NCBI GenBank assembly: GCA_977017645.1
Contig: OZ360221.1
Coordinates: 65,410,001 to 65,474,000, forward strand
DNA from: Torpedo marmorata
Lineage: Eukaryota
Direction: 5' to 3'
DNA: 64,000 nucleotides
Made by a program: the position numbers and the translations under genes. The notes under the pieces were generated by a model. It made no database searches, was not told the DNA's origin, and saw only the letters and a list, made by a program, of their open reading frames with translations. The number at the start of each line of letters is the position of its first letter. The first letter of the stretch is position 1. Below are positions 15,799 to 64,000 of this stretch, piece after piece.

Positions 15799-20218
<4,420 letters not shown>

Positions 20219-36057: not shown

Positions 36058-36469
36058 ACCAGTGATGCAACACCCACGTTCGCTAACATTCAGACCTGAA
36101 AATTTGGGCAATCATTAAACAAACTGTCTACTTGGTCTTTACAGCTTTTTATAACACAACAGTTGTGAAATGACAGCAAAACTTTCTTCATGACTATACG
36201 AATGTAAATAATAGGCTGACTAAATGCAACATGAGAAATTAAAACTTGCAACTTGTCAAAACCAAAACATTCATTCTCACCTTGACCTTTGCTGTTTCAC
36301 AGTGTTATGGCAACTTGTATATTAAATGCTCTTGAGAAAGGTTAAAACTTTTTTTGTGAATATTACATCGTTTCCGGCGCTTAGTCGATGCTACCGTTTC
36401 ATTTTCAAATGTAGGCAAATCTTCCAGTTACTACGCAATTTTATCTTGTAAACGCCACGAGCGAGTTTT

Positions 36470-38728: not shown

Positions 38729-40871
38729 ATGACCCAGAGATTGGCATTGCAAGGTAAAGTTGTTTCAGAGATTCTGACCTCACTGACTTGTTTGGACAAC
38801 TATGAATTGGGAGGGATTTTGTTGTCCTTAATTGTGGGCAGAAGGACGCTTGATCAGAATTTTATCGTCTGAAATTACGAACGACTGTGAAAGAGAGACT
38901 TGCACTTGTATAGCACCTTTGCCTTGCTATAAAATGTCAGGAAATGCTTTATAGGTCCTGAAGACTTAAAAGTTAATAAGCGCAGTGTTGTGTAGGAGAC
39001 GGGTCACCAACTTCTGAATACAAAGGTAAAACACGAAAGTCTGCAGACACTATGGTTGAAGTAAAAACACAATGCTGGAGAAACTCAGCAGGTCAAACAG
39101 TGTCCTTTTAGAGCAACGTAACCAACGTTTCGGGCTTGAGCCCGAAATTGGGAATACAAAGTTCCACAAAAAACAATGTAAAGATGATACCGGTTGAATT
39201 CTATCCAGGGAGACCTTCAGTTCTTCAAATCTTTGGTGTTAATTTGTCTTCCTTTCTCATTGTTGTCCTATATTCTGTACGTTTTGTTCTCTACATGGCT
39301 ATATGAATGTTGGAGATAACTTATTAGTTGGTTCACAAAAGAACCCTTTTCGCTGTACTAGATAGTTTGTGACAAATAAACAAATAAGTTTGGCCTTAGG
39401 GTCTTGCAAGTTCATTTGATTAAGTGTGGCAAGGAATGGTTTAACATCTCGTATGAAAGAGTACATTTTTCTGTGATACATTGGTATGCTGCCTAGTCTT
39501 CAGATTGGAATTCAAACCCATAATTTAACAGGTGGTAAAAAACACAAATGCTGGAGAAACTCAGCAGGTCAAACAGTGTCTTTTATGTAGCAAAGGTAGA
39601 AATACATAACCGACGTTTCGGGCTTGAGCCCTTCATCAAAGTATGAGAAAATGCCGGCAGGCGTCCGAACAAAAGAGTGAGGGGGGAAATGGGGGTGGCA
39701 AAGGCAGGAGATGATAGTTGGAGAAAGAAGGGAGGGGACAGCAGCAAAGAGGGGGAGGAGGGATAGCTGGGTGGGTGGAAAAAAACAGGAAGGACAGGTG
39801 AGGGGGGAGGGGAAGGAAACGACAAGCAGGTTGAGTGGAAAGCAGAAATGTCAATGTTAATGCCATCTGGCTGGAGAGTGCCCAGACGGAAAATGAGATG
39901 TTGTTCCTCCAATTTGCGGGTAGTCTGGGTGGGATAGTACATAAGGCCATGGACAGACATGTGAATGTGGGAGTGTGACCCGGAATTGAAATGGTTGGCT
40001 ACTGGGAGGTCGCTGTTGTTGCGGACGGAGAGGAGGTGCTCAGAAAAGCGATCTCCCAATCTACGACCTGTCTCTCCGATGTAGAGAAAGCCACAAAGGG
40101 AGCACCGGATGCAGTAAATAAGTTCTCTGGATGTACAAGTGAAGTGTAGTTTCACTTGGAAGGCCTGTTTGGGGCCCCGGATCGTGGTGAGGGGGGAGGT
40201 GTGGGAGCAGGTGTTGCACCTCCTGTGGGCACAGGGGAAGGTGCCGGGGGTGTGATGGGTGGGGAGGGGTGAGTGCACGAGGGAATCGCGGAGGGAGCGG
40301 TCCCTACGGAAGGCCGAGAGGGGAGGAGAAGGAAAAATGTGTCTGGTGGTGGGATCCTGTGGTAAGTGCCGGAAAATCCGGCGGATAATGTGTTGGATGC
40401 GGAGGCTGGTGGGGTGGTAGGTGAGGATGAGGGGGATTACTTAACAGGTGGTATTGGATTCTTTTGGGATCCTTTTTTAAATCATGTGGATACATCTTTC
40501 TCGACCCTATTGCCCCCTCCCCCATCAACTCAGCTCCTTTCACTTTTCTCCCTCCCACTGGTATCCAACCTATCATCTGCTAACCTTGCTACTCCTCCTT
40601 CCCCTCCCCCACCATATTTGGGTGTCTTTCTGATTTTCGGTAAATCTGAAGAAGGGCTCGGGAACAAAACATCAACTGCCTATTGCTTTCCACGGATGCT
40701 GAGTTCCTTCAGCACTTTTGTGTAATCATTATGCGTATTAGTTCTTGTTTAACATTTTTACCTTTTTTACCTTAGTTTTTGAACAGTACCAGAAGGCCAG
40801 AACACACTTTGTACAAACAATTGCAGAACTTGCAACAAGGCCACAAAATATCGAAACATTACAAAATGCCG
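38729..40871 (+). CDS. SPAG6: Sperm-associated antigen 6 (armadillo-repeat axonemal central-pair protein), coding exons 1-2 only; gene continues beyond the window
   Basis: Exons 38729-38753 (MTQRLALQ, GTAAAG donor) and 40776-40871 (VFEQYQKARTHFVQTIAELATRPQNIETLQNA, GTAAGG donor) match the SPAG6/PF16 N-terminus and its position downstream of BMI1. Confidence 0.93.
38895..39230 (-). mobile_element. Ancient L2-tailed SINE remnant interrupted by a short Penelope derivative (39026-39151)
   Basis: ACTTGCACTTGTATAGCACCTTT tail-like motif. The insert is flanked by TSD GAATACAAAG (39016-39025, 39152-39161). Confidence 0.55.
39538..40440 (-). mobile_element. 5'-truncated Penelope-like element with GIY-YIG endonuclease and pseudo-LTR
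   Basis: ORF 39583-40278 contains CxxxxCxxC, LIYCIRCSLCGFLYIGET.RRL..RF.EH, PVANHFN and GTLQPDGIN. 13-bp TSD TTAACAGGTGGTA at 39525-39537 and 40441-40453. Confidence 0.92.
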
Positions 40872-43724: not shown

Positions 43725-44310
43725 GTTCTAGTTTCCGTCGCTCCCGATGCAATTAAGCACAGCACTCAGAAATTTTGTTATTAACTCTTTATTAAGTAAC
43801 AAGCTACCTGAGAGAGCCCTCCCCTGCTCTCCAGTGGAAGCTACCTGGGAGAGCCCTCCCCTGCTCTCCAGTCTCCGTCCGACCAGAGGACGCACCAGAT
43901 ATTTATACACACAGACAAGGTAGTTACAGCAAAAGTTGCATCAGCCACAGACCCACGTGATCTCAAAGTAGAACATTACATGTAAGCTGAGGAGAACCCC
44001 CTTCCCCACACCCCCCCCCCAAGCCTGTGTCCTTAAAGATTATCATACAAGGTTGCAAAAAATCTCTTAGAACAAAGGACAGTTTACAATTCTCAGACTC
44101 AGCGAAAAAGCCAGAACATCTTATCTGTTCTTGCACCATCTGTTTTTGCTCAGCTCTAACCGTACCAGGCACCTCAAGGGTGAGAGCGAGCTTCCTGGCA
44201 CCAACACACACAGCAACACAGCACTTCTTTCAATCCTTTCACCCCCCCCCCCCCACTACAATGAGTCCCACCAGGCTTCCAAGGGTCCCAACAATCACCT
44301 CCTAACATCA
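43725..44310 (-). repeat. ERV 3' LTR
   Basis: Direct repeat of 48823-49383. Minus-strand TATAAATAT near 43899-43907 and AATAAA 43788-43793; internal tandem duplication of about 37 bp at 43801-43872. Confidence 0.93.
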
Positions 44311-44338
44311 TTCCTTCCTTTTATCATTCTATGATAAC

Positions 44339-45468
44339 TTATAGCAGAACAGAGGCAGATACACGTGCTAGTATGGTTTTACAGCAGACATTTATACAGG
44401 TGACAACAGCACAGAGAGCAACTAGTACTGCCGAGAGTATTACAAATGCATGTAAGATATATGACCCCCATGATCCTCCGAATATCCATTTTAGCCAGTC
44501 AAACCACCCATCCTGTCCTGTGGGACCCTGTCTAAAACTGTCCAGCTGATCATGGATATCCTGTATTGCTTTAGAGATATTAAAGGATTCATCTGCGACC
44601 TTGGTGATGCACTTATCTCCGACAATAGCGCAAACACCATCCTGGGTAGCTAACTGATAATCCACTGCATACCGGGTCTGTTGTTCAAAGAGCCTCAACT
44701 CCACCAGTTCTCGATCAACAGCCTCCAGCCCTGCCATAGTCTCATTGCCCAACGCCGTTAAGCCACAGATGTAATAATTGTGATTCTTCGTAGCCACCAC
44801 CCCAGCCGATCCTCCAAGGGATATGGAACTGAGCACTCCCCATCCGATGTCGGACCCTAGGTTTTTGGATTATGATAGTCCGCCCAGAATTCCTTGGTCA
44901 CTCCATGGGGGACGATTCATCGTCTGGCTTGAGCGTTCTCAGGGCATGGGACGACTCGAGGTCCTAACGTCCCTATGGCAAACAAGGCAGGGAGACTGTT
45001 TCCATAAATGGCGGTGGTAAAAGTTCCATTAAGAAGGAATACATATCCCTTCTTTTAACTGATAACAGGTGGTGGAGTCTGGGAACATCGTTTGGTACCA
45101 TGGCAACCCCCGTTAGCCTGATTGTACTTTACTATTAGTTCAAATAGGGCTATCTGGCTCTCTATACACCTTCCTTTTGCCACCCTAGAGAGCGTTCCCC
45201 TGATCCCTTTGCAAGCACTGGTGGTGTCCTGTATTTTCAGTTCTTCCTCGTTCTCACTCATCGGTTGGGCCATAAATAAAGCCTGAGTAGAATGCACGAG
45301 AGGGTAACACACTGTCCTGTTCCCATATAGTTTTAAATGCGTTGTATAAAACAGATTATCCGAGAGGGCCCCAGTGGGCCTCCCCTTGGTCATAAACAAA
45401 CAGTAAAGAAGGTATAGTTCAAAATAAAGTTCAAGTCCATAATTCACATGCCATCTGGTTCCCATCAT
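44339..45468 (-). pseudogene. env: ERV env (about 375 codons; stops and one frameshift)
   Basis: Hydrophobic leader, short SU, then TM with fusion-peptide-like GVLSSISLGGSAGVV, heptads, RYAVDYQLATQDGVCAIVGDKC, WFDWLKWIFG and a transmembrane helix. The start overlaps the pol stop (ATGA). Confidence 0.85.
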
Positions 45469-47330
45469 TTGCAGTCACTGAGGTGGATCCACCGTTCAAT
45501 TCCTTGCACTTTCACGGCTGTCGGCGTTTGCAGAAGTATCTGAAAGGGCCCTTTCCACCGAGGTCCCAACTTAACTCTTTCCCAGTCTCTGATTAGGACC
45601 TGATCTCTGGTGGTAACTTGGGGCCACTCCGATTGTCCTTCAGTCGTCCCGAAAGCTTCTCGTACTTGTGAGTGGAGAAACTTTAAAGAGGCTGTTAATT
45701 GATGGAAATATCGATGCAAATATTCACCCATCAAGGTTACGTCTCTGGTTTGGTAGGCTGACATTCGCATCCCATGGGTTTCTTCCTGGTCTCCCGTATA
45801 TCATTTCGGCTGGTGAGACTCCCGTCCTGGAATGAGGGGTTATCCTCATTTGATACAGAGCCAGAGGCAAGACTTTGACCCACCCCAGACCTGTTTCTGT
45901 CATTAATTTTTCTAGTTTAGTTTTTAAAACCCCGTTGGCTCTCTCCACTACCCCCGCCGCTCTTGGATGATGTGTACAGTGGAATTGTTGTTTGATTCCA
46001 AGAGCCTGACACATTTCCTTGTTAATCTTCCCCACAAAATGTGGGCCATTATCCGAGCTAATTTGTGCTGGCAGGCCAAACCTCGGAATTACCTCCGTGA
46101 GGAGTATACATACTACCGTAGATGCCTTATTATTCGAGTAGTCAGGTTGGCTTTGATCCATCTGCTAAAAACATCTATCATAACCAAACAATACTTATAA
46201 CAATGTACACGTAGCAACTCAATGAAATCTAATTGAATGCACTCGAATGGCCCCCCCCCGGCAATGGCGTGTGTCCCACTGCGCATTTTATCCCTTTTCC
46301 TGGATCATTTATTTGTCATACGAGGCATGATTGCTTTCTTTTTCTTGCTGCCTCCTCAATCTTGGGATGCCACCAGGTTCGCAGCAGAACATTACTCATT
46401 CCTTCCTTGCTGAAGTGCGTATCCGAGTGCAGACAATCTACAAGCAACGGCAATAGAGTATCAGGAATACATACTTGGCCCACTGGAGTTGTCCAGAGGC
46501 CTGTGGACGCAATTCGGCCGCAGAAGCGTCCTTCTGGTGCCGTATAATTTCTTCCAAGTCTGGTTTACCCGGAACCTCAGATGTTCGAATTGTTGCCACC
46601 CGGTCATTGGTAATTACCTCAACCTTCCCGTGGCCGTGGCTTGCTTTGCGGCTGAATCCGCCCTATTATTTCCCTGGGTTAGGAGAGAATCATCCGCTCG
46701 GTGCGCAGAGCATTTGTTATGGCCAATTGGGTAGGGAGGAAGATGGCCTCTAATAGGTTCTTCACGATGGTCGCATTCTGTATGGGAGTTCCGGCCAATG
46801 TTAGGAAACCCCTGTGGGACCAGAGGGCCCCAAAACCATGTGCTACTCCAAAGGCATATCTGGAGTCGGTGTATATGTTTACTGCCTTCCCTGATGCCTT
46901 AATGCATGCTCGTATTAAGGCAAATAATTCAGCTTTTTGAGCTGAAACGGGGGGTCGTAGGGCTGCTGCCTCGAGCTCAGAGGTCGAGTCGACAATAGCG
47001 TAACCACTCATTCGTTCCCCCGTACTATGAACATAAGATGAGCCATCTACGAAAAGGGTCATATCGGGTCGTTCGAGAGGGACGTCTTGAAAGTCGGAGC
47101 GCGGAGATGTTAAAATGGAATTGCGAGTGAGGCAATCGTGAGGCGAGGTGGAAAGATTCTGTGGCGGGTTACTGAGGAAAGTCGCAGGATTCAAAGACGA
47201 ACAATGGGCGAAGGTCAGTAATGGGTTATGTAAGAGCAAGATCTCGTAGCGACTTAAATGAGCCTGGGTGAGATGTTGGGTCTGACATGAGGTCATGGTG
47301 ATGGTGTAGTCAGAGTCATACAGCAGAGGC
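45465..47330 (-). pseudogene. pol: ERV pol remnant: connection, RNase H and integrase (PR and RT absent)
   Basis: LNPATFL, HDCL, LFVDGSS, SAQKAEL, NIYTDSRYAFG; IPRFGLP..ISSDNGPHF, GVVERANG; GPRWKGPFQILL and WIH. Frameshifted. Confidence 0.92.
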
Positions 47331-48357
47331 TGAACAAATCTTAGGTAGTAGCCTGATACATCTGGATGGTATTCATTATAATCTATAAATTCTTCTGGGT
47401 TTGTCTTTCGATTAGGGGCTTGGTTCATGATCATACACATCTCATGGGGTTTCCAGGGGGTGTAAACCTGAAGGGTTGGGGCCTGAGCATTTCCATGAGG
47501 GTTGGAGATAGTCAGATTAGGAAGGGCTCTTGCAGCCGGTTGCTAAAGCCTGTAGGGGCCATCCACATTGTATTCCTCCTTTGGGTCAATGTCAGGGCCA
47601 TTCCCTATCGTTCGAACATTTACCGCTGCCTACGGCTTCTGTCAGGGTGTCTTAGCGCTCCATGCGGCTGGGACAGGCAGTTGACTTAAGCCAGGGGTCT
47701 GACTCCTCTTTCGGGCGGCAATTGAAGGGGGTGCAGACGGGGATGCCGGTGGGAGTAGGGGCATCCCTGGCAAGTATGGGGGTGGTCTGGTGGGTTGATT
47801 TCCCTGTTGTGGTGGAAAAGGGGGATAAATAGGGGGACTTGGCCAGTCATCTTCCTCCTGATCTGTCATTTTGGAACAGTTCTGGTAGGCCAGACATGGA
47901 CGGGACCGGTCCCTTTTTTGAGGTTTCGTTACCTTTTTCTTCTCCTGTATCCTTCCTTTGCTTTCCAACCTTTTCCTTATCGTGCTCCTCACATTGATAC
48001 TTCAGCACCTCCCAAGGCTTGTTTCCTCCCTTCCCATCACTTATGTTTATCCCTCTTCGACTTGCATTACGTTCCCAAATTGTTTGTCTAGACCTCTGAT
48101 TAATTTCTTCGGCTTCAGTTTGCCAAGCCGACATTAGTAGTTTCCACTGATCCCCCTTATTTCTTTTCCATATAGCCTCTTCCGCTTTTTTGCACTTAGC
48201 TAGATCCCAAGTTCCTCCCAGAGGCTATTCCTCGTTTCCTAATTTTTTATTTAAAGGAGGCGGATAATTTTCGAAACAACTGTTCTTTCGTTGGATTTTT
48301 CTTACACATTTTACCCAAAGGAGTGATTACTCCCGATTTATCACAAACTTGTCCCAT
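47330..48357 (-). pseudogene. gag: ERV gag remnant (matrix, late domain, start of capsid)
   Basis: ATG at 48357 gives MGQVCDK (myristoylation Gly); (W)PLGGTWD matrix motif; PPIYPP...RPPPY late domain. Stops and frameshifts. 3' limit approximate. Confidence 0.8.
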
Positions 48358-48801
48358 GTTGTCCCTTTTGTTCCTCTGCGCCCACTTCAGGGTCCTGACC
48401 TTCGCGTGGGGGATTTCCCCTCTTAACCAGACTAAGGCAGAGCATCAGAACTAGGACAACACTTTCAGAACTAGGACAACACTTTTATCCCTTCCCTGGG
48501 CGAATCTTCAAGCCCTTGTTTTCCGTCATCGAATCCTCAAGCCGACCTTCTATCCCTACCCTGGGCGAATCCTCAAGCCCTACCTTGTTTTCCGTCAGCG
48601 AATCCTCAAGCCGACCTTCTGTGTGCCCGGGACGCGACGCTCTCGGTTCGTCTGGAGCTCGTCAGAGTCGTGCCATCGGAGGAGGGGATCAGCTGGACTG
48701 ACACCTTAAGAGGAGAACCGGGAAAGTTTCCCGTGGGCCCGATCTCTGGGCGCCAGCTCAGTCGGTCACTTACACCGTCTGGTGAACAATTCTCAATTGG
48801 G

Positions 48802-48819
48802 CTCCTGGCTGGCTCGCCA
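48802..48819 (-). promoter_or_regulatory. ERV primer-binding site, tRNA-Arg(ACG)
   Basis: TGGCGAGCCAGCCAGGAG, 3 nt after the LTR-terminal CA, is the complement of the vertebrate tRNA-Arg(ACG) 3' end (CTCCTGGCTGGCTCG-CCA). Confidence 0.88.
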
Positions 48820-48822
48820 AAT

Positions 48823-49383
48823 TGTCGTTCTAGTTTCCGTCGCTCCCGATGCAATTAGGCACAGCACGCAGAAATGTCTTTATTAAGTAGCAAGCTACCT
48901 GGGAGAGCCCTCCCCTGCTCTCCAGTGGAAGCAGTATCGCAGGGTCTCCATCCGACAAGAGGACGCACCAGATATTTATACACACAGACAAGGTAGTTAC
49001 AGCAAAAGTTGCATCAGCCAGAGACCCACGTGATCTCAAAGTAGAACATTACATGTAAGCCGAGCAGAATCCCCTTACCACCCCCCAAGCCTGTGGCCTT
49101 AAAGATTATCATACAAGGTTGCAAAACATCTCTTAGAACAAAGGACAATTTACAATTCTCAGACTCAGTGAAAAACCCAGAACATCTTATCTGTTCTTGT
49201 ACCATCTGTTTTTGCTCAACTCTAACTGTACCAGGCACCTCAAGGGTGAGAGCGAGCTTCCCGGCACCAACAAACACAGCAACACAGCACTTCTTTCAAT
49301 CCTTTCACCTTCCCCCACCACCCCCCCAATACAATGAGTCCCACCAGGCTCCCAAGGGTCCCAACATTCACCTCCATACATCA
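48823..49383 (-). repeat. ERV 5' LTR
   Basis: TGATG...CGACA on the minus strand, adjacent to the PBS. Confidence 0.93.
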
Positions 49384-49999
49384 GTTGCAGCGGGGGGGGG
49401 GGGGGGGGGGGCGGTACAGAGGCCCAGAGTTTGTAGCTTCTTGACCAGCACTGAGGGAATAATGGTATTGAAGGCTGAGCTGTTGTCGATGAAGAGCAGC
49501 CGTATGTATGAGTTGCTGTTTTCGAGGTGATCCAGAGCTGAGTGGAGAGCCAGCGATATTGCATCTGCTGTGGAGCGATTGTGACGATAGGCGAATTGCA
49601 GTGGGTCCAGATCTTTTCATCACAGTAGAAGTTAGTGCTACTGGGTGATAGTCGTTGAGGCACCTCACACTACTCTTCTTGGGCACCGGGATGATTGATG
49701 CCCTTTTGAAGCAGGTGGGAACCTCTGACTGCAGCAATGAGAGGTTGAAAATGTCTGTGAACACTCCGGCTAGTTGGTTGGCGCAGATTTTCAGTTCCCT
49801 GCCAGGTACGCTGTCAGGGCCAGATGCCTTGCGAGGGTTCACCCTCTTGAATGATGTTCTAACATTGTCCTCAGAGACAGATATCACAGGGTCCTCAGCC
49901 TTTGCAGGGATTCTAGTAGGCACTGTTTGGTTCTTCTCAAAGCGGGCATAGAAGGTGTTCAGCTCATCGGGTAATGAAGCAACACAGCCATCTATGTAT

Positions 50000-50320
50000 A
50001 GTAAAGTAAAACACGAAAATCTGTAGACACCGTGGTTGAAGTAAAAAACACAAATGCTGGAGAAGTCAGCAGGTCAAACAGTGTCTTTTATGTAGCAAAG
50101 GTAGAAATACATAACCGACGTTTCGGGCTTGAGCCCTTCATCAAGAAATACATAACCGACGTTTCGGGCTTGAGGCCTTCATCAAGAAATACATAACCGA
50201 CGTTTCGGGCTTGAGCTCTTCATCAAGAATTGATGAAGGGCTCAAGCCCGAAACGTCGGTTATGTATTTCTACCTTTGCTACATAAAAGACACTGTTTGA
50301 CCTGCTGAGTTCTCCAGCAT
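50000..50320. mobile_element. Penelope-derived palindromic insertion: three tandem 41-bp hammerhead-like units plus one inverted arm
   Basis: Units 50104-50144, 50145-50185, 50186-50226. Inverted arms 50054-50144 and 50230-50320. TSD CATCTATGTAT at 49989-49999 and 50318-50328. Confidence 0.88.
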
Positions 50321-50654
50321 CTATGTATGGTGTTCGCTCTCGCTTTGTAGGCTGTAATGGTCTGCACTCCCTGCCATAGCTGGTGTGTATCTGTCTCTGT
50401 CTCTTGCTTCCTTTGATTATAATCTTAGACAAAAATGTTTGATTTGGACTTTTAACTTGTATTACATGCTAGAGATTAAATACGGTAGTTGAAAAGGGAT
50501 GAATTAAGCTCGCCATTGTGAATCGCTATGTCTCAGAATTTCCAGAAACTAGTGAGTCAATTGCACTTGCTACTGATCTACACAGTAAATTTACATTTAA
50601 CTGCTTGAATCTACAAGTGCCGATTTTGGGTTTCAGAATAGTGTCTTAGGCCTT

Positions 50655-50915
50655 TTTTATGAACATAGAATATTACAGCACAGTACAGGTCCTTCAGCCC
50701 ATGATGTTGTGTTGACCGAACAAAAAAAAAAGAAACCCTCCCTACCTCATAACCCTCCAATTTTTTTCATTCATGTGCCTAAGAGTCTCTTAAATGTCCC
50801 TATTGTTCCAACCATCACTACCATCCCTGGCAATGCATTCCAGGCACCCACAACTCTGTGTTTATATATAAAAAAAACAGCCCTGATGTCTCCCCTAAAC
50901 TTTCCTCCTTTGATC
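50655..50915 (-). mobile_element. CR1 3' end fragment
   Basis: GAACATAGAA tail and CCTGGCAATGCATTCCAGGCAC (WNALP on the minus strand). Confidence 0.7.
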
Positions 50916-51731
50916 TAGGTTTGTACAGCATGGTTGTAATGTGTTAATAAAGAAACCGTTTTACACTTTCAAGGCTTGTAAATGGCCAGCCTTGTATGAG
51001 GGAAGACTAAATTGAGGATTTAAAGCCTTTTGTGCCAGGCAAAGGAGGGCTGACTTTACATAGGCCACTGCAGGGTTCAGAGGCATTTTTCATTTTCTTG
51101 GGAACACTATTCTTTTAAGTTCTTGGTGATTGCTCCCATTTGCCCTGATGTCCTAAGCAATCCCTAATCAAATGCTGTGGATTAGACTGCGTACGAGCTG
51201 AAGTACTGAAGATGCAGTTCAGACTAGCTACACTTTAGCCAAGCTATTCCAGTAGAATGATAATATCGTCAGGTGGATGCTAACGTGGAAAATTTGCCTG
51301 GATGAGTCCATTTCATAAAAAGCAGGACAAAATTATTACTACCAACCAATCTACATTTGATCATCATCAAAGTAATATAGGTGTTTTTGTGTCAACAGTA
51401 CAACCACGTTGCATTTAATTTGCGATAACTTGCTCAGCAGTGCTCAGTTTTTATTTCACTATGACCACTTGGCCCCAGAACTCATCACAGCTTGTTCCAA
51501 ATGTATACTAATGAGGTGAATTCCAGAGGTGAGATGAGAGTGACTGCTCTCAACATCGACGGTGTATTTGACTAAGAATGGCATCAAGGAGCAATGAAGT
51601 CGGGGGCGTGGCGTGATGGCGTAGGAAGAAGACGCAGAAGAACACCACTCCCGACAGATAAAACTTAGAAGACTGTCTAATTAACTTTCTTTAAAGTTAG
51701 AATACTTTGAATAGTATTAACAGTTACTACA

Positions 51732-53096
51732 ATGGCCACAAGAAGAAAAACAAAGGAACAGAAGCCTAAGAAAAGTTTAAAATCGGTAAAACAGTTATCC
51801 ACAGTATATGAAGAAAACAGGCCTACCTTTACTTTGGATCCGGGGACTGTAGTTGTGATGGAGCCCAAGGTCCAGCGGAGGATACGGAAGGAGGAGTCGG
51901 TGGTGACGGCGCCAGCTCCGCAGGGAGCTGCGGAAGATGGCGCCGACACCCGACGTCGGACTACAAGAATCAGCACTGAATCATCGCGCATGCGCGAACC
52001 GGCAGGACTCGGCAAGCTGCAAAAACAGGCAGCTGGATCAGAAACGTCTGTGAGGACTCCTCAGGCTATATTTCAGCCTGAGGAGCTGGAAGGATCGGAA
52101 TCAGAAGAAGAGAGAGAGGAAGACACTGATGATGATGATGATGATGAAGAAGAAATGTCTTCTGAAGGTATGCAAGTTATAAAAAAGGTAACAGGAGCAG
52201 ATAAAGAAAATTTTAAAACTGTGTTATTGGCCATTGTAAAGTTAGAGAAAGGTGTGAAACAAAGATTTACTCAACTTGAATATGAACTGAAAAAAGAAAT
52301 TCGGGAAGTAAGAAAAGACATGAATAAAATGGATACTAGAGTAAAACAAGTAGAAGAGGATGTTGAATATTGCAAAGAGAGAGTGAACACTATGGAAGAT
52401 ACTTTTACGGGCTGGCAATTACAACGTGATCAATTAATGCAGAAGATGGATCAGATGGAAAATCAAAGTCGAAGGAATAATGTTAAAATATTGGGAATAC
52501 CGGAAGGAACTGAGACACAGGACGCAACAGGATTTTTTCAGGATTGGTTGGTGCGGACATTTAATCTTGAACAACCAATGGAATTGGAAAGAGCGCATAG
52601 AGTTGGAAGGAGAAACCAAGTGGACCGGAGACCTCGTCCAGTTTTGATGAAATGCCTTAGATATCAAGATAGGGAAAAAATCTTAAAGATGGCAATTCAA
52701 AGAGCACGGGACAATAGAGGCCCGATGGTTATGGAAGGAAATAGAGTTTTCTTTTACCCTGATTTAAGCACAATGGTGGTTAAGCAACGAAAAGAGTTTA
52801 ATCCAGCAAAGGCTATATTATGGGATAAAGGATATAAATTCTCGTTTAAATATCCAGCAAGTTTGAGGATCCAGGACAATGATGAAAAATTTATATTGTT
52901 TACGGATCACGAAGCGGCGCTTACTCATGCAAAAGCTCTTCCGCGTCGATCAAGAAACTTTCAGAATACTTTAGAACAACAAGATCGGAGAAATCAAGTA
53001 CACCGAGATGATGAGATACCCGGGATATCAGGAGAAAATACTTTAATTCAAGTTGAAGAAGAACGAGATAATATTATTGTGGGAGACGTTAATTGA
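51732..53096 (+). CDS. L1 ORF1p (coiled coil, RRM and CTD), 454 aa
   Basis: ENQSRRNNVKILGIPEG, LERAHRVG, RPRPVL, FFYPDLS and KYPASL motifs; acidic N-terminal tract. Confidence 0.92.
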   Translation: MATRRKTKEQKPKKSLKSVKQLSTVYEENRPTFTLDPGTVVVMEPKVQRRIRKEESVVTAPAPQGAAEDGADTRRRTTRISTESSRMREPAGLGKLQKQAAGSETSVRTPQAIFQPEELEGSESEEEREEDTDDDDDDEEEMSSEGMQVIKKVTGADKENFKTVLLAIVKLEKGVKQRFTQLEYELKKEIREVRKDMNKMDTRVKQVEEDVEYCKERVNTMEDTFTGWQLQRDQLMQKMDQMENQSRRNNVKILGIPEGTETQDATGFFQDWLVRTFNLEQPMELERAHRVGRRNQVDRRPRPVLMKCLRYQDREKILKMAIQRARDNRGPMVMEGNRVFFYPDLSTMVVKQRKEFNPAKAILWDKGYKFSFKYPASLRIQDNDEKFILFTDHEAALTHAKALPRRSRNFQNTLEQQDRRNQVHRDDEIPGISGENTLIQVEEERDNIIVGDVN

Positions 53097-53367
53097 AAAC
53101 ATTTTGGATATTATATAAATCTGTTGGGGGGAGGTGGGTGCATGAGCACTTCTTCCGAACCTATCACCACTTTAGCGGCGAGAACCGCTTCTCGAACAAT
53201 GGAGGGGGGTAACACTGGGAATAGAAGACCAGTGTTCTTTACAGGGGTTTTTTTTCTTATTTTAATGTTTCTTTCTTTCATTCTAACTGAGGAGGACATA
53301 TATATGCAGATGAGTAAGAGGGATACGCTGGTGGATCTGATTGACAGGGAAGGATTATTATTTGATT

Positions 53368-56300
53368 ATGGGGGATTCTAAGAGTATAAACTTAGTTAGT
53401 ATTAATATAAATGGGCTTAACAATCCAATTAAAAGGAAAAGAACTTTGACATATATAAAAAAATTGAAGGTAGATATAGCCTTTTTACAAGAAACTCATT
53501 TGACGGATGTTGAACATCAGAAATTGAAAAGAGATTGGGTAGGACATGTTGTAGCTTCATCATTTAATTCTAGAGCAAGGGGAGTTGCTATTTTAGTTAA
53601 TAAAAAGTTGCCCTTCAGGATACAATCGACAGTGATAGATACGGCAGGTAGATATGTTTTGATTTATTGCCAAATCTATTCAGAATTTTGGACTCTTATG
53701 AATTTGTATGTGTCAAATCCAGATGATGAACAGTTTATTCAAGATGCTTTTTTACATTTATCAGATGCTAAAGATAATATTTTAGTTGGTGGTGATTTTA
53801 ATTGTTGTTTAAATGCAATAATGGATAAAACTTCCAAAACAGCTGTTAGACCAAAAATAGTGAAAAAGATAGTTAATTTGATGGAGGATTTAAATTTGGT
53901 GGATATTTGGAGAAAATTAAAACCTAGAGAGAAGGACTATTCATTCTACTCATTTAGACATAATTCTTTTTCCAGGATAGATTTATTTTTATTGTCTTCA
54001 CAACTTCAAGAAAGAATAACACAGATATCTTATAAAGCAAGAATAATTTCGGATCATTCACCTTTATTAATGACGTGTATAATCCCAGAGAAAGAAAAAA
54101 CTATTTATAACTGGAGATTTGATTCTTTATTATTGAAAAGGAAGGATTTTTGTGAATATATGAGACGAGAAATTCAGGAATTTTTAAGAGTAAATAATAA
54201 TTCGGTAGATGATAAATTTATGGTATGGGAAGCTTTGAAAGCTTATTTAAGAGGTTTAATAATAAGTTTTTCAGCAAAGATAAAAAAAGACTATTTGAGA
54301 GAAGAAGAAAAATTAGAGAAGGAGATTGAAATTATGGAAAAAGATTCACAGAGAAACCGGTCTATTCTTAAGAGGAATCGTTTAGTAAGGAAGAAATTAC
54401 ATTATAATTTATTGCAAACGCGTAAGACTGAAAAATTGATAGTAAGAACAAAACAAAGATATTATGAATTAGGGGAAAAGGCACACAAGGTGTTATCATG
54501 GCAATTGAAAAAAGAGCAAGTTTCTAAAACAATTAATGCTATAAGGAAGAGAAATACCGGGGAAATAACATATAAGCCACAAGAAATAAATGAATCTTTT
54601 AAAGAATATTATCAGAATTTATATAGATCTGAGACAGATCAAGATGAAACGAAGATAAATAGATTTTTATCTAAAATTACTTTACCTAAATTGAGTGTTC
54701 AAAGTAAATATTCTTTGGATTTACCTTTTACGATGAGAGAAGTTACTGAAGCAATATCGACGTTGAGAAGTGGTAAATCTCCAGGTGATGATGGATTTCC
54801 AGTAGAATTTTATAAAGAATTTAAAGATTTATTGATACCTTTGTATATGGAGGTATTGAATCAAGTTAAGGAAACTCATTTATTACCGAAGACATTTCTA
54901 AATGCTATCATTACGGTTATACCAAAGAAAGATAGAGATATATTAAAAACAGAATCTTATAGGCCTATTTCATTGTTAAATGTAGATTATAAGATAATGG
55001 CGAAAATTTTAGCAAATAGATTAGCTAAATGTTTACCACATTTAATACATTCAGATCAAGCCGGATTTATTAAAAATAGATATTCGAAAGATAATATAGC
55101 TAGATTGTTAAGCTTAATCAATGTATATAAGAAGAAACAAGATTTACCACTGGTGGTAACATTGGATGCAGAGAAGGCATTTGATAGAGTAGAGTGGAAT
55201 TTCTTATTTAAGGTTTTGGAAAAATTTGGATTTGGAGATAATTTTATAAATTGGATTAAAACTATATATAAGGAACCTACGGCTAAAGTAGTTACAAATG
55301 GACAGATATCGCAAAAGTTCTTATTATCAAGATCAACACGACAGGGATGTCCTTTATCACCTGCTTTGTTTGTGTTGGTAATAGAACCTTTAGCAGAAAT
55401 GATTAGAGAAGATATAAATATAATGGGAATAAAGGTTGGTAGGGAAGAGCATAAGATTAGTATGTTCGCAGATGATGTATTAATATATATGACAAAATCT
55501 GTTACATCACTTCAACAATTGGCTATTATATTGACAGAATATGGTGAGATATCAGGATATAAGATTAATTCAGATAAAAGTGAGATTTTGGCTTTATCAC
55601 AAGGGGATTATACTAGATGTAAAGAAGTTACAGACTTTAAATGGACTACAGAGAGTATTAAATATTTGGGAGTCAAAGTAGATACAAATTTGTATAAATT
55701 AAATTATACACCTTTATTTATTAAAATAAAAAAAGATTTAGAGCTTTGGAAAGACTTACCTATAACGTTGATGGGAAGAGTAAATTGTATTAAAATGAAT
55801 GTTTTTCCAAGAATTCAATATCTTTTTCAATCGATTCCTTATGGTATTCCAAATAAATTTTTTAAAGATTTAAAATTTATTGTTAGGAAATTTCTATGGA
55901 AAGGAAAGTTAGCAAGAGTAAGTATAGATAAATTAACATGGAATTATGAGATGGGAGGATTACAACTTCCTAATTTTCAACATTATTATAAAGTAGCTCA
56001 GTTAAAATTTATTAATGAATTTTTTGATTTAAATAAAACTTCTGCTTGGATTAATATAGAATTGAATAATATGGGAGAAATACATAAAGAAGATATTATT
56101 TATAAATGGAATCCTAAATTATTATTACTTAAAAAGAAAAAAACACCAATTATTAAACATCTGTTGGAAATTTGGTCGCAAGTAGATAAGGAGATAGGTC
56201 AAAAAGGATTAATTTCTTTAAATACACCAATATATCAGAATCCGCTTTTACCATTTTCTATGGATAATCAGTTACTTAAGTTATGGTTTTTAAAGGGAGT

Positions 56301-57150
56301 TAAGACATTAAAAGATTGTTTTGAAGCAGGTAAATTTGTTACCTTTCAGAGGTTAAAGGAAAAATTTAATATATTAGATAATACAATGTTAGTTTATTTT
56401 CAAGTCAGAGCTTTTTTGACTGAGAGATTAGGGAATGAATTAATAATATCAAGACAAAGTGAATTGGAGTTATTAATTACCAAAGTTAATGTTAATAAAT
56501 TTATATCACAAATGTATAAGTTGTTTCAAAGAAAGATGTCTAAGGCAGGAGAACATAGGTCTAGATTGAAATGGGAATTAGATTTGAATGTTAATATAGA
56601 TGAAAAACATTGGAAAGATTTATGTAAATTAAGTATGACAAAAGTTATTAATGTGAGATATAGATTAGTACAATATAATTTTTTTCATCAATTGTATTTG
56701 ACACCTAGAAAATTGAAGAAATTTAACCCAGCGTTATCAGATATGTGTTTTAGATGTAAAACTGAAATAGGATCTTTTGTACATTGTACATGGTCATGTT
56801 CAAAGATTCAAGATTTTTGGTTGAAAGTTAAGAATTTTTTAGAAAGAATTTTTAATGTTGAAATTGCAATGGATCCTATGTTATTTTTATTTGGAGACAT
56901 TAAAAAATTTAGTATTAGACATAAATTGAATATGTATCAAGTAGAATTTTTACGTATAATATTAGCAATTTCAAAAAAATGTATAGCTATTACTTGGAAA
57001 TCGGATGTTGATTTAAATTTAGAACGATGGCATGCAGAGTTACGGTCATGTATACCATTGGAAAAAATTACCTATAATTTACGAAATAAATATCATTCTT
57101 TTTTGAAAATTTGGGGCCCATATACGAGGATTATGGGTTTAACATTGTGA
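53368..57150 (+). CDS. L1 ORF2p (APE endonuclease, RT and CCHC), 1260 aa, uninterrupted
   Basis: NINGLN, FLQETH, GGDFN, SRIDLF, SDHSP; LDAEKAFDRV, RQGCPLSP, FADD, KYLG; CFRC..EIGSFVHCTWSC. Confidence 0.96.
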   Translation: MGDSKSINLVSININGLNNPIKRKRTLTYIKKLKVDIAFLQETHLTDVEHQKLKRDWVGHVVASSFNSRARGVAILVNKKLPFRIQSTVIDTAGRYVLIYCQIYSEFWTLMNLYVSNPDDEQFIQDAFLHLSDAKDNILVGGDFNCCLNAIMDKTSKTAVRPKIVKKIVNLMEDLNLVDIWRKLKPREKDYSFYSFRHNSFSRIDLFLLSSQLQERITQISYKARIISDHSPLLMTCIIPEKEKTIYNWRFDSLLLKRKDFCEYMRREIQEFLRVNNNSVDDKFMVWEALKAYLRGLIISFSAKIKKDYLREEEKLEKEIEIMEKDSQRNRSILKRNRLVRKKLHYNLLQTRKTEKLIVRTKQRYYELGEKAHKVLSWQLKKEQVSKTINAIRKRNTGEITYKPQEINESFKEYYQNLYRSETDQDETKINRFLSKITLPKLSVQSKYSLDLPFTMREVTEAISTLRSGKSPGDDGFPVEFYKEFKDLLIPLYMEVLNQVKETHLLPKTFLNAIITVIPKKDRDILKTESYRPISLLNVDYKIMAKILANRLAKCLPHLIHSDQAGFIKNRYSKDNIARLLSLINVYKKKQDLPLVVTLDAEKAFDRVEWNFLFKVLEKFGFGDNFINWIKTIYKEPTAKVVTNGQISQKFLLSRSTRQGCPLSPALFVLVIEPLAEMIREDINIMGIKVGREEHKISMFADDVLIYMTKSVTSLQQLAIILTEYGEISGYKINSDKSEILALSQGDYTRCKEVTDFKWTTESIKYLGVKVDTNLYKLNYTPLFIKIKKDLELWKDLPITLMGRVNCIKMNVFPRIQYLFQSIPYGIPNKFFKDLKFIVRKFLWKGKLARVSIDKLTWNYEMGGLQLPNFQHYYKVAQLKFINEFFDLNKTSAWINIELNNMGEIHKEDIIYKWNPKLLLLKKKKTPIIKHLLEIWSQVDKEIGQKGLISLNTPIYQNPLLPFSMDNQLLKLWFLKGVKTLKDCFEAGKFVTFQRLKEKFNILDNTMLVYFQVRAFLTERLGNELIISRQSELELLITKVNVNKFISQMYKLFQRKMSKAGEHRSRLKWELDLNVNIDEKHWKDLCKLSMTKVINVRYRLVQYNFFHQLYLTPRKLKKFNPALSDMCFRCKTEIGSFVHCTWSCSKIQDFWLKVKNFLERIFNVEIAMDPMLFLFGDIKKFSIRHKLNMYQVEFLRIILAISKKCIAITWKSDVDLNLERWHAELRSCIPLEKITYNLRNKYHSFLKIWGPYTRIMGLTL

Positions 57151-59736: not shown

Positions 59737-59993
59737 TGTGGTAAACCACTATGTATAGGTTGTGGCTGGGTGATATGTCTGGACATGCCCTCTGCTGACT
59801 GTCCTGGTGGCTCCTTCCACAGACCCCCTGAATAAAGGCCATTGTGCCACCACTCCTCCCCCAGTCCAGGACAGATTATCAGCACAGATGTAGCTCCATT
59901 CTTTTGCTAATAAAAGCCTTTCAGTTCCAGTGTAACTTCTAGTCTTTTGAAGTTATTGATGGGCTCATCAATTTTATTAGCAAAATTGTAAGC

Positions 59994-62900
59994 ATGGAGA
60001 ATGTCTTGAGACCAGACAAGCTGGACCTCGATCCACAAAAACCAGAGGCCGGCAATGCTTTTGAACTCTGGCTAGCCTGCTTTGAGTTGTTCCTGGAGGA
60101 GATCAAGGTACAAGAAGATGCTGCAAAACGCAAGGTCCTCCTCTCTAGGGTATGCCCACGAGTCTACTCCATGATCCGAGATCTGCAGACTTACGAAGAC
60201 ACTATGAATGCCCTTAAAAGACAGTATATACGGCCTGTTAATACTGTATATGCGCGACACCGGCTAGCGACGCGGCAGCAGCAGCGGCTCGGGGAGTCGA
60301 GCGCGGAGTTCGTCCGGGCCCTACAGACACTCGTGCGGGCCTGCGACTGCCAGGGACTGACGGCTGAACAACACGCAGAGCTCCTAGTAAGAGACACTTT
60401 TGTTATGGGGACCAGGTCAGTGTATGTGCGCCAGCGGCTGCTGGAACAAGCTGACCTCACCTTCCGTTCCGCGATCGAGCTGGCCGATACAATGGAGGCC
60501 GCACTACAGAACTCTGATGCTATCCAGGCGCGCGATCTCCTGCCGGCTCCGTGGATACCGCAGACCACACACCACGCCGGTGAATTGACCACAGCTGCCG
60601 TCAGCCGCGAGTCTGAGAAATGTTACTTCTGCGGACTTGAAAAGCACTCCTGGAAATGTTGCCCGGCCCGAGAACCGACCTGCTCCAGCTGTAGGCAGAA
60701 AGGCCATTTCGCTAAGGTCTGTAGATCTAAACCGCGTGCGGGATTGAGCAGCGCTGCGTGCGAGACATGGGGCCGCCATCTTACTTACCCGTGGCCAACA
60801 CGTGCGAGTCATTGGAGCGGCCATTTTGTTCCACGCCATCGCGCCGACACGGTGCCGCCATCCCGGAACAGCAGGCACTCCATCGCGTCGGATCAAGACA
60901 GCGACCCATGGGTGCCCCCACCCCGGAACACCTGGCACCCCATCGCGTCGGTTCAAGACAGCGACTCAACGTTGGCGTCAGTTACACTCGATCAGAGTGT
61001 ACCTCACCAACTCGCGAGGTCGATGATGGACATCCTGGTCGAGGGACACAGAACAAACTGCCTGTTCGACACGGGCAGCACAGAGAGCTTCATCCACCCA
61101 GACACGGTACAGCGATGCGGCTTCAAGACACAGCCGGTAAGCCAGAGGGTTGCCATGGCTTCTGGATCGCACACAACAGGCAACCGGGAAGGTTGTGTAG
61201 CGACGCTAGTGGTGCAGGACACTGAATATCGGGACTTCACGCTATTGGTCATGCCCCGACTGTGTGCCCCTGTACTACTGGGGCTCGACTTCCAGAGTCA
61301 CCTCCAAAGTGTGACTATGGAGTATGACGGGCCGCTTCCACCAATTACTGTCGGTAACCACCAATTTCTTAAAAACGACAGACGTATTTCGTCACACCAC
61401 ACTACTTGCGGTCTATCCACCCTCAAGATCCTGCCCCCAACACTGTTCGCCAATCTGACCCCTGATTGTAAACCCGTGGCAACCAAAAGCAGGAGATACA
61501 GTGCAGGGGACAGGGCATTCATTAAGTCAGAGGTACAGTGGTTACTTGGGGAAGGGATCATTGAGGCGAGCATGAGTCCCTGGAGGGCCCAGGTGGTTGT
61601 CGTCAAGAACGGGGAGAAAAACAGGATGGTGGTAGATTACAGTCAGACCGTCAATAGGTTCACACAGCTTGACGCGTACCCCCTACCACGCATTGCAGAT
61701 ATGATAAATCAGATAGCTCAATATAAGCTTTTCTCCACCATAGACCTCAAATCTGCCTACCACCAGCTCCCCATTTGCCGGGAGGATCGCCCCTACACCG
61801 CCTTCGAGGCGGACGGCAGACTCTATGACGTCCTGCACGTTCCCTTCGGGGTCACAAATGGGGTATCTGTCTTCCAGAGGGAGATGGACAGGATGGTGGA
61901 CCAGTACAAATTAAAGGCCACTTTTCCATATCTAGACAACATTACTATCTGCGGTCACGACCGGCAGGACCATGATAACATTCTCCGGAAGTTCCTCCAA
62001 GCGGCCAAAGCACTTAACCTCACCTATAACAAGGATAAGTGCGTGTTCGGAACCACCCGACTCGCTATCCTGGGGTGTGTTGTGGAGAACAGGGTAATCG
62101 GCCCCGACCCCGACTGCATGCGCCCCCTGTTGGAACTACCACTTCCCCACACCCTCAGAGCCCTCAAAAGGTGCTTGGGCTTCTTTTCTTACTATGCTCA
62201 ATGGGTCCCTAATTATGCAGACAAGGCCCACCCCCTAGTCAAGTCCACCACTTTTCCCCTTGCAGCGGAGGCACGTGAGGCTTTCAGCCTCATAAAAGGG
62301 GACATTGACCGAGCAGCAATGCACGCGGTGGACGAGTCCACTCCCTTCCAAGTAGAGAGTGACGCGTCCGACTTCGCACTGGCTGCTACACTCAACCAGG
62401 CGGGAAGACCGGTGGCGTTCTTCTCCCGTACCCTTCAAGGCCCAGAAATTCGGCACTCAGCGGTGGAGAAAGAGGCCCAGGCGATAGTGGAAGCTATCAG
62501 GCACTGGAGGCACTATCTCGCCGGCAAAAGGTTTACCCTGCTGACTGACCAATGTTCAGTCGCATTCATGTTCAGCAACCAGCATCGGGGTAAAATCAAA
62601 TACGATAAAATCCTGAGGTGGAGAATTGAACTCTCCACCTACAACTATGATATAATGTACCGGTCCGGGAAGCTCAACGAGCCCTCCGATGCTCTATCTC
62701 GGGGGACGTGCGCCAGCGCACAGATCGACCGGTTATATGCCCTCCACTGCGACCTTTGCCACCCCAAAGTCACCCGGCTTTTCCACTTTGTGAAAGCCCA
62801 TAACCTACCGTACTCCCTGGAAGAGCTCAGGACGATGACCGGGAGCTGCCATGTCTGCGCAGAGTGCAAACCGCACTTCTACCGACCTGACAAGGCACAA

Positions 62901-63820
62901 TTGATAAAAGCAACCCGCCCATTTGAGCGACTAAGCGTCGACTTTAAGGGCCCCCTTCCCTCCACCGACTGCAATGTGTACTTCCTCAACGTCATTGACG
63001 AATACTCGCGGTTCCCTTTCGCCATTCCCTGCCCCGATACCACTTCCACCTCGGTCATAAAAGCTCTCTGCAAACTCTTCACATTGTTTGGATACCCTTG
63101 CTATATCCATAGTGACCGAGGATCCTCGTTTATGAGTGACGAGCAACGCCAATACCTGTTGGCCAGGGGTATCGCGACTAGCAGGACCACGAGCTATAAT
63201 CCACGGGGAAATGGACAAGTGGAGAGGGAGAACGCCACGGTCTGGAAGGCCACACTCTTAGCCCTCAGGTCTAAGGGATTACCAGTCTCCCGCTGGCAAG
63301 AAGTCCTTCCCGAGGCACTCCACTCCATCCGCTCCCTGCTATGCACATCCACCAATGCCACACCTCATGAGAGACTCTTTTCCTTTCCCAGGAAGTCGAC
63401 CACTGGGACTACCCTACCAGCATGGCTGACGTCCTCAGGGCCAGTGCTGCTCCAGAAACATGTCAGGAGAGGGTTCAATTACTACACGCGAACCCCCAGT
63501 ATGCCTACGTGGTTTTTCCTGATGGGCGGGAGGACACGGTCTCCATCCGGGACTTGCCACCCGCAGGAGCACTGGGGCCCGCCCTCGAACACTCCGTAGT
63601 TACTGTCACCCCCGTACCTACCATTAAAGCCACACAAGAGGCACCACCCAATTCAAACATGACACCAAATGTACCGGCATATTCACACGAGGTTTTGCGA
63701 ACGCCAGATGTGCTGGTACCCCAAATTAGGCAGGAGGCAGCACCGCTGCCTGCCCCATCACCACAAGTACTGCGCCGATCACAGCGGTGGACCCGACCGC
63801 CTGATCGACTCGATTTGTAA
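59994..63820 (+). CDS. Gypsy gag-pol polyprotein (gag-CCHC, PR, RT, RNase H, IN); open 59994-63599, with the true C-terminus shifted into frame 63422-63820
   Basis: CSSCRQKGHFAKVC, LFDTGS, IDLKSAYHQ, PFGVTNG, YLDN, SDASD, EKEAQAI, HHCC and D-D-E (DFKG, SDRGS, QVEREN). A frameshift near 63468 separates LLHANPQYAYV. Confidence 0.9.
60851..60966 (+). repeat. In-frame 60-bp tandem duplication in the gag-protease linker
   Basis: VPPSRNSRHSIASDQDSD / VPPPRNTWHPIASVQDSD, period exactly 60 nt. Confidence 0.9.
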
Positions 63821-64000
63821 TTTGTAAATTCTTTGTAAATATGGTTACACCCTTCATCCCGTGGGACTCTTTGAAAAGGAGGGGTGAATGTGGTAAACCA
63901 CTATGTATAGGTTGTGGCTGGGTGATATGTCTGGACATGCCCTCTGCTGACTGTCCCGGTGGCTCCTCCCACAGACCCCCTGAATAAAGATGATTGTGCC

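What the first reader, a model, noticed from the sequence alone, without database searches (positions are those of the whole stretch)
50000..50328. Tandem trimer plus inverted copy of a minimal hammerhead-like motif, inserted as one TSD-flanked unit
Seen: three 41-bp units read on the minus strand TTGATGA-AGGGC-TCAA-GCCC-GAAA-CGTC-GGTTATG, then a fourth copy in the opposite orientation. This gives about 91-bp inverted arms, flanked by an 11-bp TSD within a Rex1. Known: Penelope-like elements carry minimal type I hammerheads (CUGANGA, stem II, GAAA, vestigial palindromic stem III) that are proposed to cleave as dimers. Inference: this array could form intramolecular dimeric ribozymes, release 41-nt monomers and form a long hairpin in SPAG6 pre-mRNA. 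Caveat: the first core C is T in these copies, and units 2 and 3 have stem II mismatches.
Basis: partly seen in the sequence, partly recalled or inferred. Interest (0 to 1): 0.7.

Follow-up and report, generated by a model that had tools for sequence, protein, structure and literature searches.

The report
Stuttered Penelope retrotransposon insertion stump
This is the broken-off tail end of a very common jumping gene whose copying enzyme likely stuttered three times over a small ribozyme motif and then added a mirror-image copy; the pieces here have lost one arm of the ribozyme, so they probably cannot cut RNA, and similar stuttered insertions occur at many other places in this genome.

Summary
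The structure is real: three 41-bp units, an inverted copy and 97-bp arms, in a LINE fragment inside a SPAG6 intron. The TSD is 14 bp with one mismatch, not 11. It is the 3' end of a Neptune-type Penelope-like element (PLE) whose 34-nt hammerhead motif has 51,105 exact copies here. The layout (tail on one arm, inverted arm, 14-bp TSD) is the known PLE insertion pattern; 1,638 places have head-to-head motifs and 143 junctions are short tandem repeats like this one. U3 is the family state (C3: 191 copies) and is in print. The ribozyme idea fails for this locus: all four copies start at the core and lack the 5' strand of helix I (2, 2, 2 and 0 bp against 6), and SPAG6 pre-mRNA carries the trimer antisense. 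More interesting at family level: short re-copying is 5- and 33-fold more frequent over the hammerhead than in flanking windows, and the period is nearly fixed within an array, suggesting repeated reverse-transcriptase jumps. The scan noted this family, its U3 core and its inverted stubs before on other DNA of this genome.

The parts
49989..50002 (+). Left target-site duplication, 14 bp (one mismatch to the right copy at 50000); its last 2 nt also match the element's 3' end
   Evidence: (D8); family TSD 14-15 bp
50003..50040 (-). PLE 3' 'tail' (38 nt), present on this arm only
   Evidence: 3' ends of 100 sampled copies fall in two classes, 56 with tail and 44 without; PMC11167929, PMC3846280
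50041..50144 (-). Rest of the long arm: PLE 3' end including hammerhead unit 1 (50104-50144; U3 at 50144, C17 at 50117)
   Evidence: 99% identical to many genomic copies; decomposition
50145..50185 (-). Tandem unit 2 (U3 at 50185), stem II substitution at 50175, helix I reduced to 2 bp
50186..50226 (-). Tandem unit 3 (U3 at 50226), stem II substitution at 50217, helix I reduced to 2 bp
50227..50229 (.). 3-nt seam (GAA on +), identical to the first three bases of a further unit
   Evidence: TRF counts 3.1 copies
50230..50317 (+). Inverted, tail-less arm starting at U3 (C17 at 50257), no helix I pair; ends at a 3-nt microhomology (CAT) with the target
50318..50331 (+). Right target-site duplication, 14 bp
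49413..50002 (-). Host LINE fragment (Rex1/Babar-like by recalled motifs), left part
   Evidence: 84-95% to 19 of 19 genomic copies fetched; RT-type reading frames in those copies
50318..50412 (-). Host LINE fragment, right part, continuous with the left part once the insertion is removed
   Evidence: 17 of 19 copies match this flank
40775..40870 (+). SPAG6 exon (residues 9-41) upstream of the intron that holds the insertion
39535..40440 (-). Longer copy of the same PLE family in this window, with intact helix I and a GIY-YIG-like frame

Best explanation
The 315-bp insert is a 5'-truncated, tandem-plus-inverted insertion of a very abundant Penelope-like retrotransposon, likely made in one event in which the reverse transcriptase copied the RNA's last 142 nt, probably jumped back 41 nt twice at the hammerhead core, and was joined to a second copy likely primed from the other cut strand; the hammerhead pieces are predicted to be inactive. 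Shown: family identity, copy number, layout, 14-bp TSD, loss of helix I, U3 as family state, recurrence of the layout. From the literature: PLE protein cuts and extends both DNA strands and starts at two internal RNA sites that define the tail, and hammerhead cleavage is not needed for insertion in vitro (PMC11167929). Inferred: that the repeats were made by the RT during insertion (about 0.6, against later DNA slippage about 0.25 and a small circular template about 0.1); that the stop point near U3 is the physical 5' end of the RNA; that the units do not cleave.
For: Family: RT (PF00078, E 2e-6, 28 bits against a 29.6 cut-off) and GIY-YIG (PF01541, E 7e-4, also under cut-off) in a 3.2-kb copy, with a C-x4-C-x2-C linker; 51,105 exact motifs. 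Layout: 1,638 head-to-head pairs within 30 nt; 11 of 14 inverted clusters in the unselected sample have a 14-15-bp TSD (the other three rows are complex loci). Tandems: 143 junctions over the hammerhead per 51,105 motifs (0.28%), against 24 per 46,190 upstream (0.05%) and 6 per 70,724 downstream (0.008%). 27 of 52 arrays examined also have the inverted arm. Unit starts lie at -7 to +1 of U3 in 47 of 50 junction strings. In 9 of 21 multi-junction arrays the periods differ within the array, which points to separate jumps rather than one duplicated junction. The exact junction of this locus occurs at one other locus. The substitutions in units 2 and 3 are private to each unit, and about 4 changes in 340 bp fit neutral decay since insertion. 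Inactivity: helix I of 2, 2, 2 and 0 bp; stem II closing pair probability below 0.001 in all four copies within the folded insert; no junction string of 50 ends at the cleavage site.
Against: 12 of 21 multi-junction arrays have equal periods, and some repeat the same non-templated bases (L308 'aaa' six times, L311 'accc' twice), which fits copying of an already formed junction (DNA slippage or a circle); this locus has two identical junctions. Both Pfam hits are below the curated cut-offs. The search patterns restrict unit starts to +1 or earlier and periods to 64 nt or less, several '0' starts come from a subfamily that differs from my reference copy, and 12 of the 52 arrays were picked for being long. 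One array (L318) has a junction compatible with an end at the cleavage site. The folding penalties have no positive control. The test for a copied cap (extra G before -5) was inconclusive. No cleavage assay exists.
Confidence: 0.82

Rival explanations
1. One reading: the array is a working dimeric hammerhead cassette (a minimal retrozyme) that releases 41-nt monomers or processes SPAG6 pre-mRNA.
For: Core, stem II and the palindromic CG stem III are present and match the metazoan min-HHR (PMC4209133). Dimeric and trimeric min-HHR constructs showed low cleavage in vitro (PMC4209133). Retrozyme consensus units as short as 51 bp are reported (bioRxiv 10.64898/2026.07.22.740005). Two units stay outside the long stem in the minus-strand fold.
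Against: Helix I is 2 bp or absent, a level that 16-30% of random 10-mers reach. The two free units are the two with stem II mismatches. Core pair U3-G8 is a wobble; other single changes of this pair abolished cleavage in a PLE hammerhead that was also protein-dependent (PMC11167929). Forcing a dimer costs 17-55 kcal/mol over the best fold (no positive control). SPAG6 is transcribed from the + strand, where only the inverted copy is ribozyme-sense and it is buried in the stem. This unit has not spread: its junction occurs at 2 loci.
Confidence: 0.05
2. The insertion came with one jump (or none) and the third unit arose later by DNA slippage or unequal exchange, perhaps helped by the palindrome.
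For: The two junctions here are identical; 12 of 21 multi-junction arrays have equal periods, some with the same non-templated bases repeated.
Against: A partial third junction (GAA) sits right at the inversion seam; substitutions are private to each unit; 9 of 21 arrays have junctions that differ; tandem junctions are concentrated where 5' ends of copies cluster, which plain slippage would not predict.
Confidence: 0.25
3. A small circular or lariat RNA holding the 41-nt unit was copied round and round.
For: Period nearly constant within arrays (mean SD 0.55 nt against 7.6 nt between arrays; 0 of 5,000 permutations); arrays of up to 10-15 units exist.
Against: The first unit is continuous with the linear tail; junctions do not lie at the ribozyme cleavage site; unit ends differ from array to array (+24 to +52); unit starts are not GU, so a spliceosomal lariat does not fit.
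Confidence: 0.1
4. Assembly artefact.
For: Palindromes and tandem repeats can be mis-assembled; public contigs did not bridge the locus.
Against: Units differ by private substitutions; a matching 14-bp TSD of the family's length flanks the insert; the same layout with different junctions occurs at dozens of loci.
Confidence: 0.03

Closest known systems
Endonuclease-positive PLE insertions with partial tandem, inverted 5'-truncated copy and one-sided tail (PMC3846280 and PMC8557442, passages read; PMC11167929, parts 1-2 of 4 read)
   Same: Direct partial tandem plus inverted arm, 30-40-nt tail on one arm, TSD, two 3'-end classes, RT followed by GIY-YIG; Neptune-type C-x-CxxC linker.
   Different: Here no ORF is left, the tandem unit is only 41 nt and does not include the element's 3' end, and the short arm ends 13-16 nt before the usual second start site, at a 3-nt microhomology. 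TSD 14 bp against 8-10 bp in the rotifer examples.
Minimal type I hammerheads of metazoan PLEs (PMC4209133, parts 1-2 of 4 and supplement passages read)
   Same: Core spacing, unpaired nucleotide before stem II, G10.1-C11.1, palindromic vestigial stem III; position 7 varies among sister subfamilies. A U3-G8 core is listed there for Saccoglossus, and opposite-strand pairs 100-700 bp apart are described.
   Different: In this locus helix I is lost. U3-G8 is the norm in a family of tens of thousands of copies rather than one listed example.
Metazoan non-LTR retrozymes (PMC7229834, passages; bioRxiv 10.64898/2026.07.22.740005, part 1 of 5 and passages)
   Same: Non-coding tandem repeats with one type I hammerhead motif per unit, derived from PLE ends.
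   Different: Units there are mostly 150-450 nt (51 at the least), have complete hammerheads, form families and give circular RNA; this unit is 41 nt, incomplete and has not spread.

Membership tests
EN+ Penelope-like element (Neptune type) | RT followed by C-terminal GIY-YIG endonuclease in long copies of the family | tested here: met
   L135: RVT_1 E 2e-6 and GIY-YIG E 7e-4, both just under Pfam cut-offs, split by a frameshift
EN+ Penelope-like element (Neptune type) | CX2-5CxxC linker between RT and EN | tested here: met
   C-x4-C-x2-C in L135, L094 and window 39583-40440; feature taken from PMC8557442
EN+ Penelope-like element (Neptune type) | Placement in the Neptune clade by RT phylogeny | not tested
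   No reference PLE proteins were fetched
EN+ Penelope-like element (Neptune type) | Tandem/inverted insertion with tail on one arm and TSD | tested here: met
Minimal type I hammerhead (intact family motif) | Core CUGANGA ... GAAA ... UH with C3-G8 or U3-A8 pair | tested here: not met
   U3-G8 wobble: C3 in 191 of 51,105 exact motifs; 99 of the first 100 listed sister-subfamily matches have U3. The same variant is listed as a min-HHR in PMC4209133 supplement
Minimal type I hammerhead (intact family motif) | Helix I of 4-6 bp | tested here: met
   6 bp with one bulge in the intact copy; mean -4.8 kcal/mol in 30 copies against -0.9 for random 5' strands
Minimal type I hammerhead (intact family motif) | Compensatory changes in helix I | tested here: inconclusive
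   Partner shuffle p = 0.098 over 30 copies; the search pattern fixed stem II and the first two 3' bases
Minimal type I hammerhead (the four units at this locus) | Helix I present | tested here: not met
   2, 2, 2 and 0 bp
Minimal type I hammerhead (the four units at this locus) | Self-cleavage after GUC as a dimer | not testable with these tools
   Needs an assay; genomic ends show no peak at the site
Rfam hammerhead families | Match to an Rfam hammerhead model | tested here: not met
   No hammerhead family among 15 matches up to E 10 in 49000-51500; top hits are miRNA hairpin models below gathering score
Non-LTR retrozyme | [quoted passage not shown] | tested here: not met
   All units lack helix I; criterion from bioRxiv 10.64898/2026.07.22.740005
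Non-LTR retrozyme | Dispersed family of the same unit | tested here: not met
   Exact junction at 2 loci, and the second has a different further structure
Non-LTR retrozyme | Circular RNA of unit length | not testable with these tools
   No RNA holder listed

The most novel reading that the evidence does not exclude
The reverse transcriptase of this PLE, a close relative of telomerase, re-copies a 25-60-nt segment at the 5' end of its RNA again and again during one insertion (repeat addition on the hammerhead), leaving arrays of 2-15 ribozyme-sized units at well over a hundred junctions; about a third of the junctions examined (36 of 105) keep both helix I strands, so these arrays could be the birth stage of minimal retrozymes. 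This locus is a crippled example of that process.
Probability: 0.3. Interest if true: 0.6.

Novelty: new member of a known kind. Interest (0 to 1): 0.27.

Why it matters
As a locus it matters little: one of thousands of PLE stubs, an intronic hairpin that may be edited like any inverted repeat. The family-level pattern matters more. How PLEs make their tandem and inverted structures is still open (PMC8557442), and an in vitro system now exists (PMC11167929). The genome offers exact predictions to test in it: a 14-nt staggered cut, two start sites, a stop zone just before the hammerhead core, and repeated 35-55-nt jumps. It also offers tens of thousands of young copies that spread with a wobble in the catalytic core, which bears on whether PLEs need ribozyme cleavage at all.

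Tried and rejected
Rfam: no hammerhead match, only miRNA hairpin models below threshold. Public runs: no RNA holder listed; Logan contigs of X1, X2, X3, X7 were swamped by other copies of the repeat and showed no piece bridging this locus, so they say nothing for or against the structure, an empty allele or editing. Cap test: G, A and T before the -5 start number 427, 422 and 761; after removing point mutants in the 30, 15 and 15 loci inspected, G leads modestly, but many G are explained by the target or by microhomology and no control position was run: inconclusive. Helix I covariation: p = 0.098. The first helix I calculation ignored its constraint (first block) and was replaced. A shared seam in two inverted stubs (L113, L116) proved to be at only 2 places, so no spreading MITE family. 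Cleavage-derived ends: none of 100 sampled 5' ends at +28 (nearest +25, +30, +30), 0 of 50 junction strings ending at +27. Literature searches for the C3U variant found nothing; searches for template jumping or repeat addition by PLE RT listed no paper on short hammerhead tandems by title or abstract start. Two key papers were not held (Lunse et al. on PLE hammerhead dimers; Przybilski and Hammann on core pair exchanges), and PMC2377424 was not read, so the effect of U3-G8 on rate and the position of PLE start sites rest on recall or on other papers' passages. One supplementary file of PMC4209133 was not searched; bioRxiv supplements are closed and may list short shark or ray retrozyme units.

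Full report
Observation. The sequence holds three 41-bp units (50103-50229, 3.1 copies), then an inverted copy, giving 97-nt arms at 97% complementarity. Both strands fold near -200 kcal/mol, far beyond shuffles. The flanks are two parts of one LINE fragment: 17 of 19 other copies fetched continue across the point of insertion. The duplication is 14 bp with one mismatch (49989-50002, 50318-50331), so the element spans 50003-50317. An exon at 40775-40870 matches SPAG6, and the next exon found is about 63 kb on, on the + strand. The name Rex1 for the host LINE is recalled, not tested. The genome has 6.2 Gb; earlier notes call it a ray, which I did not test.

What it is. The first 144 bases match many genomic copies at 99%. 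[quoted passage not shown] The element reads on the minus strand, and the motif lies 142 nt from its 3' end. The 34-nt motif has 51,105 exact copies and a downstream 33-mer has 70,724. A longer copy and several older relatives lie in this window.

The layout is the family's ordinary one. In 100 copies from the first 6 Mb of contig C1, 3' ends fall in two classes, 56 with a 38-nt tail and 44 without. PMC11167929 (parts 1-2 of 4 read) reports that a PLE protein cuts and extends both strands and starts at two RNA sites whose distance is the tail; PMC3846280 (passages) describes direct plus inverted pLTRs with a one-sided tail and a TSD. Here 14 of 46 short clusters had an inverted arm, and 11 of these 14 a 14-15-bp TSD. 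Head-to-head motifs within 30 nt occur at 1,638 places. In this locus the long arm has the tail and a 2-nt match to the target end; the short arm starts early at a 3-nt match.

The ribozyme. In intact copies the motif reads as a minimal type I hammerhead with a 6-bp bulged helix I. Helix I is much stronger than random in 30 copies of this and sister subfamilies, but compensatory change is not significant (p = 0.098). Position 7 varies among subfamilies while position 3 stays U; C3 occurs in 191 copies. U3-G8 is listed for Saccoglossus in the supplement of PMC4209133. The effect of this wobble on rate I could not read; C3G and G8C abolish cleavage in the anole PLE motif, which also needs protein and is not needed for insertion in vitro. 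At this locus all four copies begin exactly at U3, so the 5' strand of helix I is replaced: 2 bp in the three tandem units and none in the inverted copy, a level reached by 16-30% of random 10-mers. On the minus strand the best fold buries the one unit with a perfect stem II and leaves free the two with mismatches; forcing a dimer costs 17 kcal/mol or more (no positive control). SPAG6 pre-mRNA carries the trimer antisense. Cleavage and release of 41-nt monomers are therefore unlikely (about 0.05). A 97-bp hairpin in the intron is predicted if the gene is transcribed; editing was not testable.

The tandem units. Short tandem junctions over the motif number 143, with 79 partly overlapping matches for shorter periods. 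Windows of the same width give 24 upstream and 6 downstream: 0.28% against 0.05% and 0.008% of copies; the denominators are counts of nearby patterns and so approximate. Part of the excess follows from where copies stop: 11 of 100 sampled 5' ends lie at -5 to +2 of U3 (two share one seam) and 38 within -54 to +30. In 50 junction strings from the loci units start at -7 to +1 and ends spread from +24 to +52, none at the cleavage site (limits of the patterns apply, and one further array, L318, is compatible with an end there). Of 52 arrays examined (40 rows from the first loci of the two searches, 12 chosen for length), 27 have the inverted arm; within an array the period is almost fixed (SD 0.55 nt against 7.6 between arrays; 0 of 5,000 permutations); 12 of 21 multi-junction arrays have equal periods and 9 do not; 36 of 105 junctions keep both helix I strands.

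Mechanism, best reading. Shown: family, layout, TSD, loss of helix I, recurrence. Inferred: the endonuclease made a 14-nt staggered cut; one end primed at the tail site and the RT copied 142 nt to U3, where it stopped, jumped back 41 nt on a 1-nt match, did so again, and began a third round (the GAA seam); the other end primed inside the RNA and also stopped at U3; the two cDNA ends were joined. The stop zone may be the RNA's 5' end: PLE start sites lie in the pLTR (PMC8557442), and the sequence at -7 to -1 fits an initiator consensus (recalled), but my test for a copied cap was inconclusive. Against this reading, identical non-templated bases repeated in some arrays point to copying of a finished junction, so later slippage or a circular template remain open for part of the arrays, this one included.

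Comparison and novelty. It works like, and meets the tested features of, an EN+ PLE stub. It is not a retrozyme by the published criterion (complete hammerheads in consecutive units) and has not spread. I found no paper on hammerhead-sized tandem re-copying at PLE junctions in the listings; most subscription papers and bioRxiv supplements were not searchable. Other papers seen: PMC4209133 parts 1-2 of 4, PMC7229834, PMC6765202 and PMC3884650 passages, bioRxiv 10.64898/2026.07.22.740005 part 1 of 5 and passages. The scan's own notes already cover this family's U3 core, inverted stubs and long/short asymmetry in this genome; they are not independent support.

Verdict. Real, ordinary at the locus, probably inert as a ribozyme. 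Interest 0.27, carried mostly by the family-level stutter pattern.

Noticed in passing
L004:1765-1780; L320-L335: Telomeric repeats sit at 5' junctions of this PLE family: 12 matches with G-rich and 6 with C-rich repeats within 12 nt of the cDNA end at U3, some between two inverted arms. This suggests telomerase (or the PLE RT on a telomeric template) extends free ends during insertion. No formal chance estimate was made.
   Followed up: partly
L308 (C11:150580000-150581300), L309, L167, L058, L183: Long arrays of 5-15 hammerhead units of 37-52 nt; several (L308, L058) keep both helix I strands and are better candidates for dimer cleavage than this locus.
   Followed up: partly
L113 and L116: Two inverted stubs 87 kb apart share the same 16-nt seam but have different flanks and TSDs, so one stub may have been copied as a unit; only these 2 places in the genome.
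   Followed up: partly
window 43725-49383: An endogenous retrovirus-like element on the minus strand with LTR-like repeats about 87% identical and broken reading frames; its right end abuts a run of 20 G and the LINE fragment that holds the finding.
   Followed up: no
window 51711-57150: An L1-type element with two long open frames (461 aa and 1269 aa, stop to stop) on the + strand in the same SPAG6 intron; looks young.
   Followed up: no
window 59737-64000: A Gypsy-type LTR element with a 1218-aa frame and terminal repeats 95.5% identical over 112 bp.
   Followed up: no
window 15799-16107 and 19880-20218: Exons that read like BMI1 (recalled) upstream of SPAG6, the usual vertebrate gene order.
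   Followed up: no
window 4158-4290, 22727-22845, 32248-32378, 35951-36061, 39015-39146, 39535-40440: Six more copies of this PLE family or older subfamilies in the window.
   Followed up: partly
L135:270-720: The N-terminal part of the PLE frame carries about 51-nt (17-residue) tandem repeats.
   Followed up: no
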